Source of the DNA: Bacillales bacterium UBA5455
Lineage (GTDB): Bacteria; Bacillota_I; Bacilli_A; RFN20; CAG-826
DNA: 47,576 nt
Direction: 5' to 3'
Assembly: GCA_002427365.1 (NCBI GenBank)
Contig: DIQT01000007.1
Coordinates: forward strand, 1-47,576
The translations under genes were made by a program, and so were the position numbers. Below are positions 6,929 through 42,403 of the stretch, one piece after another. Under the pieces are notes generated by a model. It saw only the letters and a list, made by a program, of their open reading frames with translations, was not told where the DNA came from and did not search any database. The first letter of the stretch is position 1; each line of letters begins with the position of its first letter.

Positions 6929-8206
6929 ATGCTAGATCTTAATTTAATTAGAAAGAATTCAAAGTTCGTTCATGACGCACTACTTAAAAAAGGGTGGGAT
7001 GTTGATTTTAGCGAACTACTTGCCAATGATGAAAGACGGCGGGAACTTTTAACCAACGTTGAAGCAAATAAAGCAGAACAAAATCGGTTATCTGCCTCAA
7101 TTCCTCAAGTCAAAAAAGCCGGTGGCGACATTACTCTAATCTTTGCCCGCGTTAAAGAACTAAAAGCGCTAAACGCTAGTGGCGAAGAAGAAATTGCGGA
7201 ACTTGAAAAGAAAATGCAAAAGTTCTTAGAAGTTCTTCCAAACCTTCCTGACCCTGACCTTGTGGATGGCGGAAAGGAAAATAACGTAGTATTGCAAGTA
7301 TATAACGAAAAACCAACGTTTGATTTCGTACCTAAAGACCATGTTGAATTATGCGAAAGCCTTGGCTTAATCGATTATAAACGGTCCGCAAAAATTAGTG
7401 GATCAGGCACATGGATTTATAAAAATCTTGGGGCGCAACTAGAATGGGCGCTGTTAAACTATTTTATTGACGAACATTTAGCGGATGGTTATGAAATGAT
7501 CTTACCACCGCATTTACTTAATTATGAAAGTGGCTATACCGCTGGACAATTTCCTAAATTTGAAGAAGATGTTTTCTGGCTTGAAGGAATGGAACCGCGG
7601 CGGTTTATGTTACCAACCGCGGAAACGGCGTTAGTTAACTTACACCGTAATGAAATTCTAAGCGAAGATGAATTACCAAAACGGTATTTTGGTGTAACAC
7701 CATGCTACCGCTCCGAAGCAGGAAGCTATCGGACCGAAGAACGCGGAATGATTAGAGGATATCAATTTAATAAAGTTGAAATGTTCCAATATGCGACTTT
7801 GGAAGGTAGTGATGCGGCTTTTGAAGAATTAGTTGGTAAAGCTGTCTCGTTAGTTAATAAATTAGGCCTACATTTCCGGCTTAGCAAACTTGCGGCGGGC
7901 GACTGCTCACATTCCATGGCGAGAACCTATGATGTTGAAGTTTGGATTCCTTCAATGGGAATTTATAAAGAAGTTAGTAGTGCATCGAACGCTCGTGATT
8001 ATCAAGCACGGCGCGGCATGATTAGATACCGGGAAAAAGAAAGTGGAAAAGTTCAATATCTCCACACCTTAAACGCTAGTGGTTTAGCGACAAGCCGTCT
8101 AATTCCCGCGATTGTGGAACAAAACCAACAAGGCGATGGTTCAGTTATCGTTCCTGAAGTATTAAGAAAATATTTACACGGACTTGAAGTAATTAAACCT
8201 CTTTAA
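6929..8206 (+). CDS. serS: Seryl-tRNA synthetase (start moved from 6893 to the ATG at 6929 behind GGAGGG)
   Basis: MLDLNLIR N-terminus, coiled-coil arm, LPTAE, motif 2 YRSEAG...FNKVE, EVSSASN and TLNASGLATSR; Ser T-box upstream. Confidence 0.97.
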   Translation: MLDLNLIRKNSKFVHDALLKKGWDVDFSELLANDERRRELLTNVEANKAEQNRLSASIPQVKKAGGDITLIFARVKELKALNASGEEEIAELEKKMQKFLEVLPNLPDPDLVDGGKENNVVLQVYNEKPTFDFVPKDHVELCESLGLIDYKRSAKISGSGTWIYKNLGAQLEWALLNYFIDEHLADGYEMILPPHLLNYESGYTAGQFPKFEEDVFWLEGMEPRRFMLPTAETALVNLHRNEILSEDELPKRYFGVTPCYRSEAGSYRTEERGMIRGYQFNKVEMFQYATLEGSDAAFEELVGKAVSLVNKLGLHFRLSKLAAGDCSHSMARTYDVEVWIPSMGIYKEVSSASNARDYQARRGMIRYREKESGKVQYLHTLNASGLATSRLIPAIVEQNQQGDGSVIVPEVLRKYLHGLEVIKPL

Positions 8207-8228: not shown

Positions 8229-8257
8229 TAGACAAAAATATTTTACATTGCTATAAT
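8229..8257 (+). promoter_or_regulatory. Sigma-A promoter of the SRP RNA
   Basis: TAGACA-17 nt-TATAAT with extended -10 TGc. Confidence 0.8.
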
Positions 8258-8263
8258 AAGGCT

Positions 8264-39129: not shown

Positions 39130-39849
39130 ATGGATAACAATCAAGACTTTTTACGCAACTATAAACGCCTCGAGGCTTTACTTGAAGAAAAATATAATTT
39201 AGATAGTGGAAGTAATAATTCATCGTCAATTATTCGCTACTACCATGAATTACGAAAATCTTATTCGGTCCGCGATAAACAACGGGCGGTTAAACTCGAT
39301 TCCTGTCGAACAATTCGAAACATGCTTTCGCATGAAGATGTATTAGACGCAATTACGGTAAGTGATGAATATATAATGTTTCTAAGTGACGAAATAAAAC
39401 GGATTGTTAATCCAATCACCGCCTTACAAGTTGCTGTTAAAATTGATAAAGCATTCACTTGTTCTTTAGATGATGAAGTCCGAAAAGTTATGGAGGTCAT
39501 GGTTAAACGCGGTTTTTCTCATGTCCCTGTAATCGATGAACAAGGTTATCTTATTGGTGTCTTTTCCCAAAAGATTGTTTTCCATCGGCTTTACGCGGAA
39601 GGTGATATTGGTAGTGATGAGAAGGCAATAATAAAAACATTTGAAAAGTATTTACCAATTAGCGCCCATATTAGTGAAAATTATGTGTTTGTTTCCGCGA
39701 ATGAAACGATTGATAAAATTACGCGCGTGTTTGAAGAAAGTCGGGGTCAAAAAAACAAAATCGGTTTAATCTTTGTAACAAAAGAAGGAAAACCAGCGGA
39801 AAAGATTCTAGGTTTTATTACACCATACGATTTAATCTATTATCATTAA
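39130..39849 (+). CDS. HEPN-like N-terminal domain fused to a CBS pair
   Basis: Helical N-terminus with LEALLEEK and RNMLSH (R63-H68). CBS motifs FSHVPVID..LIGVFS and ILGFITPYDL. AAGGAG RBS. Confidence 0.8.
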   Translation: MDNNQDFLRNYKRLEALLEEKYNLDSGSNNSSSIIRYYHELRKSYSVRDKQRAVKLDSCRTIRNMLSHEDVLDAITVSDEYIMFLSDEIKRIVNPITALQVAVKIDKAFTCSLDDEVRKVMEVMVKRGFSHVPVIDEQGYLIGVFSQKIVFHRLYAEGDIGSDEKAIIKTFEKYLPISAHISENYVFVSANETIDKITRVFEESRGQKNKIGLIFVTKEGKPAEKILGFITPYDLIYYH

Positions 39850-39898
39850 TAAACATTAAGAATGTTTTCTCATTTTACTTAAATTTATATGATAACGC

Positions 39899-39927
39899 TT
39901 GCATTTTATTTTAAATTCTATTATCAT
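39899..39927 (+). promoter_or_regulatory. Sigma-A promoter of the candidate ncRNA
   Basis: TTGCAT-17 nt-TATCAT. Confidence 0.65.
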
Positions 39928-39933
39928 AAAGCA

Positions 39934-40119
39934 GTTCTAAAAACTTTAACAAAAGTTCTTTAGAATTTTGGAAGTTATCGCAACAAGATGATAAAAAACA
40001 ATGGATCCCCCTTCCTATAATAAAAATCGTCTTGTTGTTACTTCCATAACATTATTTGTCCTTGACTATTGATGATTTTTAAAATAGAAATGAGTAGGAG
40101 CAATCTTACTCATTTTTTT
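39934..40119 (+). ncRNA. Candidate structured non-coding RNA, ~186 nt, unknown family
   Basis: Promoter in front, two long helices and a 12-bp GCAA-capped terminator with a U tract; no ORF with an RBS. Confidence 0.55.
40088..40119 (+). terminator. Rho-independent terminator
   Basis: AAATGAGTAGGA-GCAA-TCTTACTCATTT then TTTT. Confidence 0.85.
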
Positions 40120-40190
40120 ATGTAAAAAAGATTAATGAAAGTAACATTCATTTCCTAAATAAGGTAAAATGAATAGCGGTAGGTTTAGTA

Positions 40191-40601
40191 ATGGGAAATA
40201 AACGATTAATTAGCGAATTTTATGAATTAAGCTATAACCAAAAAGATTATGAAGCGGCGAGTGCATACTTAGCGCCAAGCTTTTTTGACCATTCCCCGGT
40301 TGCTTCTAAAAGTCGCGAAGAAACGCTTGCCGCAATTAAAGATGTTCATCATGCCTTTCCAGATTTAGAAGTTCGAATTCTCGATTTAGTGATGGAAGAT
40401 GACGTTGTTGTCGTACAAGCTTTTTTTAGTGGAACCCAAGCTGCGCCATATTTAGGCGTAGAAAATCACGGCAACAAAATTGAATTTTTTGCCTTAGAAA
40501 TGTATCGCTTTAATAAGATGGGAAAGATGATTGAATCGTGGGGCTATTGGCCGAACCAAGCAATTATTGAGCAATTAACAAGATTAGAGGAAGAAGAATG
40601 A
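40191..40601 (+). CDS. SnoaL-like ester cyclase / NTF2-fold protein
   Basis: FFDH, AFPDL, LVMEDDVV, FSGTQ..YLG and YRF...GKMIESW. Confidence 0.85.
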   Translation: MGNKRLISEFYELSYNQKDYEAASAYLAPSFFDHSPVASKSREETLAAIKDVHHAFPDLEVRILDLVMEDDVVVVQAFFSGTQAAPYLGVENHGNKIEFFALEMYRFNKMGKMIESWGYWPNQAIIEQLTRLEEEE

Positions 40602-40861
40602 AAGCATTAATTAGTTTATTAAAATCTTTAGTTATCGTAACGCTTTTATCTGGTGTTGCTGTTTTCTTTTATGGTTTATTAATGGCGGATAACCACCGTC
40701 TTACGCTAATTCTAATTGGTTTAGGACTCTTAGTGGTTATGGGGATTCTCCTTGTTGTTTTATATTTTGTTGGTAAGCGTCATGATAAGAACGAAGAACA
40801 TTTAGAAGCCGTTAATAATGAAAAAGATAATAATGAAGAAGAAAATATTCCGTTAGAATAA
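40598..40861 (+). CDS. Small two-TM membrane protein with an acidic tail
   Basis: ATGA overlap with the SnoaL gene, GAGGA RBS, two hydrophobic helices. Confidence 0.7.
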   Translation: MKALISLLKSLVIVTLLSGVAVFFYGLLMADNHRLTLILIGLGLLVVMGILLVVLYFVGKRHDKNEEHLEAVNNEKDNNEEENIPLE

Positions 40862-40921
40862 TTTAAAATAAATAATTAAAATTAAAATAATAAATAGACA
40901 TCATTTTGAATTGGAGCACGT

Positions 40922-42403
40922 ATGGAACAAGCACTCGACAACAACTTATATTTAAAATTACAAAACGAAAGCATTAAACAACGGGTTGCCCGCTTTGGGA
41001 ACAAGCTATATTTAGAATTTGGTGGTAAGTTATTTGACGACCGCCACGCAACACGTGTTTTTCCGGGCTTTCAAATCGACTCCAAAGTAAAAGTTTTGTT
41101 ATCGATGAAAAAAGACGTTGAATTTATTATTACAGTGTCCGCAGATGATATTCAAGATGGTAAAATTCGCAGTGATACCGGCTTAAGTTATGAAGATGAA
41201 ACATTACGGTTAATTGATGAAATTACAAATGTTGGTCTTACAATATGCGCGGTTGTCATTACCAAATATACCCATCAACCCGCGGTTAATGTGTTCCGCC
41301 GGTTATTAAAATCATTTAAAATTCCAACATATATTCATCAACCAATTAAAGGATATCCTCATGATATCGATTATGTTTTATCTAACGAAGGCTTTGGCCA
41401 AAATGAATATGTTAAAACGTCACGTCCAATTGTTGTTGTTACTGCGCCTGGTCCTGGATCAGGAAAAATGGCGACATGCCTATCGCAAATCTATTTAGAT
41501 GATAAACGGGGAATTAAATCAGGTTACGCAAAATATGAAACATTTCCCGTGTGGAATTTGCCATTAAAGCACCCCATTAATTTAGCGTATGAAGCCGCGA
41601 CCGCGGATTTAAATGATGTAACAATGGTGGATTACTACCACTATGAAAAGTATCAAGTTGCCGCTGTTTCGTATAACCGCGATATGGAAGTGTTTCCAAT
41701 TCTAGCAAAAATGTTTGAACGGATTTATGGAGAATCACCATATTATTCACCCACGGATATGGGTGTAAATATGATTGGGTTAGCAATTTCGAATAATGAT
41801 TCAGCGGTTCAAGCCGCAAAAGATGAAATTATTCGCCGCTATTACCAAGCATTATGGAAAAATAAAACGGGTCGCTTAAGCGATGAAGGCTTAGAGCGAA
41901 TTCATTATATTGTGAAAAGTTTAAATCTTGATCCGCAAGTTGATCGGATTCCTGTTTTACCGGCGCTTAAAAAAGCGGAAGAAAAGAATGCCCCCGCTGT
42001 TGCAATTTTATTAAACGATGGAACGCTTGTTACTGGTAAAGAAAGCGCCCGCTTTACCGCGGGAGCGGCTGCCCTAATTAACGCGCTAAAATATTTAGCG
42101 AGCATTAATAAAAAACTTCATTTACTCGCGCCAAAGTTAATTGAAACGATTCAAAACCTTAAAAAAGAAAACATGCGTTCGCAATCATTACGACTATCAG
42201 TGAACGAAGTATTAATTACGCTAGCGATTACCGCAACAACCAACTCATTTAGTGAAGTGGCTTTAAATCAAACCGAATTTCTTGCTCACGCCCAAGCGCA
42301 TTCAAGCATCAGAATGAATAGTGAAGATAAACAAGCATATAAAGAATTAGGCATTGACGTTACAAGCGAACCGGTGCAAACAAGTTATTTTCTTAAAGAA
42401 TAA
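40922..42403 (+). CDS. DUF1846 (UPF0371) family protein
   Basis: KLYLEFGGKLFDD.HA.RV.PGF, TAPGPGSGKMATC, KYETFPVWNLPL.HP.NLAYEAATADL and SPTDMGVN. Confidence 0.88.
   Translation: MEQALDNNLYLKLQNESIKQRVARFGNKLYLEFGGKLFDDRHATRVFPGFQIDSKVKVLLSMKKDVEFIITVSADDIQDGKIRSDTGLSYEDETLRLIDEITNVGLTICAVVITKYTHQPAVNVFRRLLKSFKIPTYIHQPIKGYPHDIDYVLSNEGFGQNEYVKTSRPIVVVTAPGPGSGKMATCLSQIYLDDKRGIKSGYAKYETFPVWNLPLKHPINLAYEAATADLNDVTMVDYYHYEKYQVAAVSYNRDMEVFPILAKMFERIYGESPYYSPTDMGVNMIGLAISNNDSAVQAAKDEIIRRYYQALWKNKTGRLSDEGLERIHYIVKSLNLDPQVDRIPVLPALKKAEEKNAPAVAILLNDGTLVTGKESARFTAGAAALINALKYLASINKKLHLLAPKLIETIQNLKKENMRSQSLRLSVNEVLITLAITATTNSFSEVALNQTEFLAHAQAHSSIRMNSEDKQAYKELGIDVTSEPVQTSYFLKE

What the first reader, a model, noticed from the sequence alone, without database searches (positions are those of the whole stretch)
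39899..40119. Independently transcribed, highly structured ~186-nt RNA of unknown family
Seen: TTGCAT-17-TATCAT promoter. Hairpin 1 is GTTCTAAA-AACTTT/AAAGTT-C-TTTAGAAT (39934-39966). Hairpin 2 is TGGAAGT/ACTTCCA plus a 13-bp GCAACAAGATGAT/ATCGTCTTGTTGT helix (39969-40046), capped by a C-rich loop TCCCCCT (40006-40012). A GCAA-tetraloop terminator ends it. I recognise no riboswitch, tRNA or tmRNA motif. Inference, three options: (a) an anti-SD-seed sRNA like RsaE/RoxS; (b) a divergent 6S RNA, since an alternative rod fold gives ~13/14-nt central bubble strands and the length fits; (c) an RNA partner of the adjacent HEPN protein; a leader of the SnoaL gene is also possible.
Basis: partly seen in the sequence, partly recalled or inferred. 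Interest (0 to 1): 0.75.

Follow-up and report, generated by a model that had tools for sequence, protein, structure and literature searches.

The report
Orphan structured small RNA candidate
A roughly 186-base, strongly folding RNA element sits between a CBS-domain gene and that gene's old terminator in one uncultured small-genome gut bacterium and its close lineages only; it looks like a young, selectively kept small regulatory RNA, not a 6S RNA, a riboswitch or a partner of the neighbouring protein.

Summary
In detail: every motif is at the stated coordinates. The + strand folds into hairpin H1, hairpin H2 and a terminator (-56.6 kcal/mol, z -8.4; minus strand z -2.4).

No Rfam family matches. 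No 6S is detectable in this genome or in 40 relatives of the family.

The element is single-copy. It has no sequence or covariance-model homolog in about 550 related genomes, phages, plasmids or public contig sets. The sister species keeps the same gene order but has only a 115-nt spacer (terminator plus SnoaL promoter). So H1, H2 and the promoter-like stretch are lineage-specific DNA placed in front of an ancestral terminator.

It is present in all 17 samples of the species whose contigs span the spacer. A lineage 21.7% diverged at 4-fold sites shows:
- promoter-like region: 0/32 changed
- H2: 3/78 changed, all pair-preserving
- open C-rich apical region: 0/33 changed
- H1: fast-evolving, but with a compensatory change
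- linker: variable

Best reading (about 40%) is an orphan base-pairing sRNA that uses the C-rich loop against G-rich ribosome-binding sites. Rivals are a cis-acting 3'UTR element or a neutral insert. The 6S, HEPN-partner and SnoaL-leader readings are not supported. Interest is modest.

The parts
39899..39927 (+). Promoter-like site: TTGCAT (39899-39904), 17-nt spacer, TATCAT (39922-39927). It would start transcription at about 39933-39935, the first base of H1.
   Evidence: Sequence. The generic scan did not list it. About 0.25% chance of such a motif in the right 7-nt window. 0 of 32 positions changed in a lineage that is 21.7% diverged at 4-fold sites (Fisher p 5e-4). Its left edge coincides roughly with the start of DNA that the sister species lacks.
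39933..39967 (+). Hairpin H1: 15 bp, AACA loop, one bulged C. Proposed 5' protective stem.
   Evidence: Fold and helix probability 0.94. About 6 changes in the divergent lineage, including A39942T paired with an inserted A (A-U becomes U-A). The hairpin is kept with 14 pairs.
39969..40046 (+). Hairpin H2: 7-bp base, 13-bp helix with two G.U pairs, a 10x10-nt A-rich internal loop and a 3-bp cap.
   Evidence: Fold and probability 0.94-0.98. 3 of 78 positions changed against 119 of 548 at 4-fold sites (p 2.5e-5). The three changes are 39985 A>G (A-U to G.U), 40029 G>A (U.G to U-A) and 39979 C>A (adds a pair).
39993..40025 (+). Open apical region of H2 with the C-rich loop UCCCCCU (40006-40012). 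Proposed seed CCCCCUUCCU.
   Evidence: Unpaired probability at least 0.95 except for the 3-bp cap. 0 of 33 positions changed between lineages (p 4e-4). It pairs with the translation-start regions of 897 called genes better than 59 of 60 shuffled seeds.
40047..40085 (+). Variable linker.
   Evidence: 5 of 39 positions changed in the divergent lineage, plus a 1-nt deletion in another strain.
40086..40119 (+). Intrinsic terminator (stem 40086-40117, GCAA loop, U-run to 40119). Ancestral terminator of the upstream CBS-domain gene.
   Evidence: Fold. A terminator followed by TTTATGTAAA aligns with the sister species. The only change is G40100A in the loop.
39130..39849 (+). Upstream gene: 239-aa protein with a helical N-domain (weak DUF6548 match) and a CBS pair. 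Its transcript has no convincing terminator before 40086, so the element is at least part of its 3'UTR.
   Evidence: ORF. Pfam: CBS 7e-15, DUF6548 5.7e-4 (below cut-off). No PADLOC match.
40165..40190 (+). The SnoaL gene's own -10 box (TAAAAT 40165-40170) and ribosome-binding site, downstream of the terminator.
   Evidence: Promoter scan. Aligns with TAGAAT of the sister species.

Best explanation
The element is a young, lineage-restricted small regulatory RNA gene of about 186 nt.

Shown:
- A strand-specific three-hairpin RNA structure.
- Presence in every sampled strain whose contig spans the spacer, and absence from the sister species and everything else searched.
- A pattern of variation that points to selection on the RNA.

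Inferred:
- It is transcribed from the TTGCAT-17-TATCAT site, starts at the base of H1, and ends at the terminator that originally served the upstream CBS-domain gene.
- It is therefore also present in that gene's 3'UTR through read-through.
- H1 is a 5' protective stem. Its sequence is free to change but its pairing is kept.
- H2 displays an invariant, unpaired 33-nt apical region. The CCCCCUUCCU tract in it pairs with G-rich Shine-Dalgarno regions (AGGAGGGG-type) of target mRNAs and blocks translation initiation, as C-rich loops of Firmicutes sRNAs do.
For: - Strong strand-specific fold: z -8.37 against -2.37. Helix probabilities 0.94-0.98 and an open apical region.
- Promoter-like site placed exactly at the base of H1, about 0.25% by chance. 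This organism uses canonical sigma-70 promoters for another RNA gene, the SRP RNA: TAGACA-17-TATAAT.
- Present, essentially unchanged, in contigs from 17 samples.
- Variation between lineages 21.7% diverged at 4-fold sites: promoter-like region 0/32; H2 3/78, all pair-preserving; apical region 0/33; H1 changed but compensated; linker 5/39. Both lineages fold to the same architecture at -56.6 kcal/mol.
- G.U pairs and A>G / G>A changes preserve pairing only on the + strand.
- The seed pairs with translation-start regions better than 59 of 60 shuffled seeds, and several top sites cover SD plus a G-run.
- C-rich motifs that bind SD regions are an established sRNA mechanism in Firmicutes (PMC6158497).
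Against:
- The -35 hexamer is weak, and the generic scan did not list the promoter.
- Some other spacers in the locus are equally conserved (1/76 and 0/81), so low divergence alone does not prove an RNA function.
- There are only two deep lineages, so covariation support is thin: one double-sided change and two wobble changes.
- The target scan gives no coherent gene set, and the genome-wide top duplexes are not at start codons. Shuffling destroys the C-run, so that control is lenient.
- There is only one C-run, whereas RsaE-type RNAs have several.
Confidence: 0.4

Rival explanations
1. It is a cis-acting 3'UTR element of the CBS-domain gene. The two hairpins are transcribed only by read-through from that gene. 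They act on its own mRNA, either by blocking 3'-5' decay or as a binding platform for a protein, with no independent promoter and no trans targets.
For: No convincing terminator lies between the stop codon (39849) and 40086. The small post-stop hairpin is weakened in the divergent lineage. The terminator is the ancestral one of this gene. The promoter match is weak.
Against: The invariant promoter-like stretch is positioned exactly at H1. An invariant open loop is not needed for a simple stabiliser. The sister species and other orthologs do without the element.
Confidence: 0.25
2. It is a neutral or selfish insert. A palindromic piece of DNA, from a duplication or the remnant of a small mobile element, was fixed in this lineage and folds well only because it is palindromic.
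For: Absent from the sister species. No homolog anywhere. The promoter-like stretch resembles a tandem copy of the preceding 23 nt (78% identity).
Against: Single copy. No terminal inverted repeats or target duplication were recognised. H2 and the loop diverge far less than 4-fold sites (p 2.5e-5 and 4e-4). The changes keep RNA pairing on one strand only. It is retained in all 17 samples whose contigs span the spacer.
Confidence: 0.12
3. It is an RNA partner of the adjacent HEPN-like/CBS protein, acting as an antitoxin, a substrate or a guide-like cofactor in a toxin-antitoxin or defence module.
For: Adjacency and the same strand. An invariant loop could be a protein-binding site.
Against: The protein's orthologs in 37 of 151 family genomes, including the 67%-identical sister, lack the RNA. 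There are no tandem repeats as in ToxI-type antitoxins. The protein matches no PADLOC defence model, and Pfam finds only CBS plus a weak DUF6548 match.
Confidence: 0.07
4. It is a leader or riboswitch controlling the SnoaL operon through the terminator.
For: The layout is structured RNA, then terminator, then gene. An alternative 20-nt pairing exists between 40012-40031 and 40071-40090 (I3).
Against: The SnoaL -10 box lies after the terminator and is conserved in the sister species, which has no element. The alternative helix barely touches the terminator core and is hit by T40077G in the divergent lineage. The linker that would be the expression platform is the most variable part. There is no Rfam match.
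Confidence: 0.05
5. It is a divergent 6S-like RNA that binds RNA polymerase.
For: The length is about 186 nt. No 6S is detectable in the genome. H2 has a 10x10-nt bubble containing UAUAAU.
Against: No RF00013 match even at E<=10. There is no closing stem between the ends. It is absent in the sister species. The whole family lacks detectable 6S (0 of 41), so that absence is a family trait. Reduced genomes commonly lose conserved ncRNAs (PMC4779614).
Confidence: 0.03

Closest known systems
RsaE/RoxS and other C-rich-motif sRNAs of Firmicutes (for example the C-rich hairpin loops of S. aureus RNAIII)
   Same: A short, Hfq-independent-style sRNA layout that ends in an intrinsic terminator. A C-run sits in an unpaired hairpin loop and is complementary to G-rich Shine-Dalgarno regions (PMC6158497).
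   Different: No sequence or covariance-model similarity. One C-run instead of two to four. A much longer carrier hairpin with a 10x10 internal loop. Restricted to one species-level group, whereas RsaE is described as highly conserved amongst Firmicutes (PMC6158497).
sRNAs embedded in 3'UTRs with their own promoter that share the mRNA's terminator (for example DapZ and MicL of enterobacteria; from general knowledge)
   Same: A promoter-like site lies just after a stop codon. The RNA ends at the terminator of the upstream gene, so the same sequence is both 3'UTR and potential sRNA.
   Different: Those examples are Hfq-dependent and proteobacterial. Here the promoter is outside the coding sequence, and the whole unit is an insertion that the sister species lacks.
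6S RNA (RF00013)
   Same: Similar length, and a bubble flanked by helices within H2.
   Different: No model match, no end-to-end rod, and not conserved.
ToxI-type antitoxin RNAs of type III toxin-antitoxin systems
   Same: A structured RNA next to a putative RNase-like gene.
   Different: No tandem repeats. The RNA lies downstream, not upstream. It does not co-occur with the protein's orthologs.

Membership tests
6S RNA (RF00013) | Match to the covariance model at or near the gathering score | tested here: not met
   No 6S match in 39800-40250 at E<=10, nor anywhere in the genome at E<=10.
6S RNA (RF00013) | Rod-like fold: 5' and 3' ends pair in a closing stem around a large central bubble | tested here: not met
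   MFE and centroid are three independent hairpins. The expected number of pairs between 39930-39968 and 40047-40119 is 0.10.
6S RNA (RF00013) | Conserved across related species | tested here: not met
   Absent from the sister species at the syntenic site and from 150 family and 400 order genomes. 0 of 41 family genomes, the window's own included, have any 6S match.
6S RNA (RF00013) | Binds sigma-70/sigma-A holoenzyme and templates product RNA | not testable with these tools
   Biochemical assay needed.
RsaE/RoxS (RF01820) | Match to the covariance model | tested here: not met
   Not among the matches at E<=10.
RsaE/RoxS (RF01820) | Two or more C-rich motifs in unpaired regions | tested here: not met
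   The only C-run in 39930-40119 is CCCCC at 40007-40011.
RsaE/RoxS (RF01820) | C-rich motif exposed in a loop and complementary to SD regions | tested here: met
   Loop unpaired probability about 1.0. Pairs with translation-start regions better than 59 of 60 shuffled seeds.
Independently transcribed trans-acting sRNA (generic kind) | Own promoter and a discrete transcript | tested here: inconclusive
   A well-placed, invariant promoter-like site, but a weak -35.
Independently transcribed trans-acting sRNA (generic kind) | Intrinsic terminator at the 3' end | tested here: met
   14-bp stem plus U-run at 40086-40119. Homologous to the terminator in the sister species.
Independently transcribed trans-acting sRNA (generic kind) | Structure and seed kept under sequence change | tested here: met
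   Changes at paired positions of H1 and H2 keep a stable hairpin (the T39947 deletion costs H1 one pair), and the seed is invariant at 21.7% neutral divergence. Only two deep lineages are available.
Type III toxin-antitoxin antitoxin RNA (ToxI-like) | Tandem direct repeats upstream of the toxin gene | tested here: not met
   No tandem array; the only direct repeat is a 23-nt pair at 78% identity. The RNA lies downstream of the protein gene.
Type III toxin-antitoxin antitoxin RNA (ToxI-like) | Co-occurrence with the protein partner across genomes | tested here: not met
   Orthologs in 37 of 151 family genomes lack it.
Riboswitch or transcription-attenuation leader of the SnoaL operon | Lies between the gene's promoter and its start codon | tested here: not met
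   The conserved SnoaL -10 box (40165-40170) is downstream of the terminator.
Riboswitch or transcription-attenuation leader of the SnoaL operon | Conserved, mutually exclusive terminator and antiterminator | tested here: inconclusive
   An alternative pairing 40012-40031/40071-40090 exists. It overlaps only the first bases of the terminator stem and is hit by T40077G.
MITE or interspersed repeat | Multiple copies with terminal inverted repeats | tested here: not met
   One copy in the genome. No terminal repeats stood out among the inverted repeats found.

The most novel reading that the evidence does not exclude
A complete sRNA transcription unit (promoter, protective hairpin and seed-bearing hairpin) was born or inserted between a gene's stop codon and its pre-existing terminator within one genus of reduced-genome gut Bacilli. 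It has since been kept by selection as an anti-Shine-Dalgarno regulator. That would be a datable example of recent sRNA gene origin in an organism that has lost conserved ncRNAs such as 6S. Two further C-rich-loop hairpin-plus-terminator units in the same genome hint at a small class of such fast-evolving regulators.
Probability: 0.3. Interest if true: 0.45.

Novelty: new member of a known kind. Interest (0 to 1): 0.3.

Why it matters
If it is real, this is a clean case for how new regulatory RNAs arise. The sister species shows the empty site, the terminator is borrowed, and within-species variation already shows the division of labour: a free-to-vary stem, an invariant seed and a variable linker. 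It would also show that an uncultured gut bacterium with a 1-Mb genome and no detectable 6S RNA still evolves private riboregulators. It opens no long-standing question, and there is no expression evidence yet, so it is of modest interest.

Tried and rejected
Searches for relatives of the element, all empty:
- Rfam at gathering score and at E<=10 gave only noise.
- 6S model against the own genome and the family gave nothing.
- BLAST of the element against the own genome and 60 relatives found only itself plus two 25-28-nt chance hits.
- The single-sequence covariance model R1 (H1+H2) against 150 family and 400 order genomes found only itself.
- blastn against phage and plasmid collections found nothing.
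- The exact 19-mer of the loop had 0 hits in GTDB species genomes, IMG/VR and JGI metagenomes. Records of the own genome may be hidden by the tool.
- A protein-based locus search in genome contigs found no relatives.

Other tests:
- Small ORFs. The 23-codon ORF 40001-40072 has no SD, and its changes in the divergent lineage are 4 nonsynonymous and 0 synonymous. The 10-codon ORF 39988-40020 has its start buried in the 13-bp helix. Both were rejected as coding.
- Target scans. The best genome-wide duplexes are not at start codons. The scan restricted to translation-start regions shows an enriched signal, but the gene set is heterogeneous.
- Paralogy with a second C-rich-loop hairpin on contig 18 is not significant (p 0.014 for the hairpin, 0.6 for the whole RNA).
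- Apparent long gene-free gaps after some orthologs were an artefact of my script. Convergent genes fill them.

Full report
**Observation**

The window is contig C7 of a 1.06-Mb, 35.6% G+C genome in 21 contigs. The 341-nt spacer 39850-40190 lies between a 239-aa gene (39130-39849) and a SnoaL-like gene (40191-40601). The upstream gene has a CBS pair and a weakly DUF6548-like helical N-domain. All genes here are on the + strand.

RNA 39930-40119 folds into three hairpins:
- H1, 39933-39967.
- H2, 39969-40046. It has a 7-bp base, a 13-bp helix, a 10x10-nt A-rich internal loop, and a 3-bp cap with loop UCCCCCU.
- A terminator hairpin, 40086-40117, followed by a U-run.

The MFE is -56.6 kcal/mol against -26.4 +/- 3.6 for shuffles (z -8.37). 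The opposite strand reaches only z -2.37. The helices have ensemble probabilities of 0.94-0.98, and the 33-nt apical part of H2 is unpaired except for the cap.

The promoter is the weakest part. TTGCAT matches the -35 consensus in 3 of 6 positions, and the generic scan did not list the site. Even so, a TTG/TAnnnT motif of this quality occurs only 759 times in 2.13 million positions. The chance of one ending where it would start transcription at the foot of H1 is about 0.25%. The SRP RNA gene in the same window has a canonical TAGACA-17-TATAAT promoter, so sigma-70-type promoters apply in this organism.

**Known families**

No Rfam family reaches its gathering score in the region. At E<=10 there are only noise hits: snoRNAs, plant miRNAs and terminator look-alikes. 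The 6S model finds nothing in the genome at E<=10.

**Distribution**

- The element is single-copy.
- BLAST finds no homolog in 60 relatives.
- A covariance model of H1+H2 finds only itself in 150 genomes of the family and 400 of the order.
- Phage and plasmid collections give nothing.
- The 19-mer of the loop has no exact match in GTDB species genomes, IMG/VR or JGI metagenomes. The tools may hide the own genome.

The CBS-domain protein has orthologs in 37 of 151 family genomes. The only other species of the genus (67% protein identity) has the same order: ABC-F, CBS protein, SnoaL, small membrane protein. Its spacer is only 115 nt and holds a simple terminator and the SnoaL promoter. Three further contigs of that lineage show 115-124 nt.

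In the alignment, three features are shared between the species: the terminator, the following TTTATGTAAA, and the SnoaL -10 box (TAAAAT 40165-40170 against TAGAAT). About 180-225 nt upstream of the terminator have no counterpart. In other genera the gene is mostly followed within 0-134 nt by an unrelated gene or by a convergent gene.

From this I infer three things:
- The terminator is the ancestral terminator of the CBS gene.
- SnoaL has its own promoter after the terminator.
- The promoter-like stretch, H1 and H2 are lineage-specific DNA placed in front of that terminator.

Gain is more likely than loss, but it cannot be strictly polarised.

**Variation within the lineage**

Exact-protein look-ups recovered about 28 contigs. 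Contigs from 17 different samples span the spacer, and all of them carry the element.
- Strains 0.1-3.4% diverged overall show no change in the spacer, with two exceptions: G40029A in one clade and a 1-nt deletion in a T-run in one strain.
- One clade (L057-L059) is about 93% identical overall and 21.7% diverged at 4-fold degenerate sites (119 of 548).

| Region | Changes in the L057-L059 clade | p against 4-fold sites |
|---|---|---|
| Promoter-like region 39899-39930 | 0/32 | 5e-4 |
| H1 | about 6 events in 38 nt | not below neutral |
| H2 | 3/78 | 2.5e-5 |
| Apical region of H2 | 0/33 | 4e-4 |
| Linker 40047-40085 | 5/39 | not significant |
| Terminator | 1/34 (loop G40100A) | not tested |

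Sources.

The three H2 changes all preserve or extend pairing:
- A39985G turns A-U into G.U.
- G40029A turns U.G into U-A.
- C39979A adds a pair.

In H1, A39942T is matched by an inserted A on the other arm (A-U becomes U-A), with a shift of the bulge. Both alleles fold to the same architecture at the same energy, -56.6 kcal/mol. The wobble-type changes are tolerated only on the + strand.

Caveats:
- Two neighbouring spacers are also very conserved (1/76 and 0/81), although a third is neutral-like (13/60).
- There are only two deep lineages, so this is suggestive rather than statistical covariation.
- One contig (L055) is a recombinant with a breakpoint inside the element.

**Mechanism**

The anatomy has four parts: a stem free to vary in sequence at the predicted 5' end, an invariant open C-rich apical region, a variable spacer, and a terminator. 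This is what a base-pairing sRNA looks like.

The tract CCCCCUUCCU complements AGGAAGGGGG-type sequences. I called 897 genes crudely and took the region from -35 to +21 of each start. The 33-nt apical sequence gave stronger duplexes there than 59 of 60 shuffled versions (top-10 mean -19.8 against -16.6 +/- 1.1 kcal/mol). Several top sites cover an SD followed by a G-run.

The candidate genes have no common theme. Genome-wide, the best duplexes are not at start codons. The shuffle control is lenient because it breaks the C-run. C-rich motifs that bind SD regions are documented for RsaE/RoxS (PMC6158497).

I therefore commit, at about 40%, to an orphan trans-acting anti-SD sRNA. It would also be carried on the CBS gene's 3'UTR, because no convincing terminator precedes it.

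**Rivals**

- Purely cis-acting 3'UTR element: about 25%.
- Neutral palindromic insert: about 12%.
- RNA partner of the CBS/HEPN-like protein: about 7%. Orthologous loci lack the RNA, there is no repeat array, and there is no PADLOC match.
- Leader of SnoaL: about 5%. The conserved SnoaL promoter lies after the terminator, and the would-be expression platform is the most variable part.
- 6S-like RNA: about 3%. There is no model match and no closing stem (0.1 expected pairs between the two ends). It is absent in the sister species, and 0 of 41 family genomes have any 6S match, so the absence is a family trait. That fits the reported loss of conserved ncRNAs in reduced genomes (PMC4779614).
- Small ORFs inside the element were rejected as coding.

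**Not done**

Independent transcription is therefore untested. The organism could not be named with the tools at hand.

**Verdict**

This is a real, strand-specific, selectively maintained RNA structure of no known family, restricted to one species-level group. It is a new member of a known kind (a small regulatory RNA or 3'UTR RNA), of modest interest. The more exotic readings, 6S and HEPN partner, are not supported.

Noticed in passing
G000:C18:170224-170399, minus strand (locus L068 925-1100, minus strand): A second intergenic unit, after a pseudouridine-synthase-like gene. It is a long hairpin with apical loop GAACCCCCUUC, then a small hairpin and a terminator. The fold has z -4.99. There is no Rfam match and no DNA homolog in 60 relatives. 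Its similarity to H2 is not significant.
   Followed up: partly
G000:C6, about 7960-8080, minus strand (locus L069): A third hairpin with a C-rich loop (GAGGAUACCCCCUCCUC), directly followed by a strong GC-rich terminator. No Rfam match at E<=0.1. Together with the contig 18 unit it hints at a small class of C-rich-loop RNAs in this genome.
   Followed up: partly
window 39871-39893 and 39902-39924: A 23-nt direct repeat at 78% identity and 31-nt spacing. The promoter-like stretch looks like a tandem copy of the sequence just after the stop codon, which may be a trace of how the insert arose.
   Followed up: no
window 39888-39895 and 39921-39928: A perfect 8-bp inverted repeat, TATGATAA / TTATCATA, brackets the -35 hexamer and overlaps the -10. 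It is invariant between lineages and could be an operator.
   Followed up: no
L055 (contig from ERZ12298798), equivalent to window 39931-40029: A recombinant haplotype. It carries divergent-lineage alleles up to 39985 and reference alleles from 40029 onward, so lineages exchange DNA within this spacer.
   Followed up: no
window 40598-40861 and 40862-40921: The 87-aa membrane protein evolves much faster between lineages than its neighbours: 15.5% change at codon positions 1 and 2 against about 2%. It is 82 aa in the divergent lineage. The following spacer is neutral-like (13/60).
   Followed up: no
L041/L061 (ERZ23500301), equivalent to window 40922-42403: The DUF1846 gene is called as 447 aa instead of 493 aa in one strain, so it may be truncated or frameshifted.
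   Followed up: no
window 8229-8262: The SRP RNA gene has a textbook promoter, TAGACA-17-TATAAT with an upstream TG. It is useful as a local yardstick for promoters in this organism.
   Followed up: partly
whole family (41 genomes, including the window's own): No genome of the family gives any match to the 6S RNA model. Either 6S is lost family-wide or it has diverged beyond recognition.
   Followed up: partly
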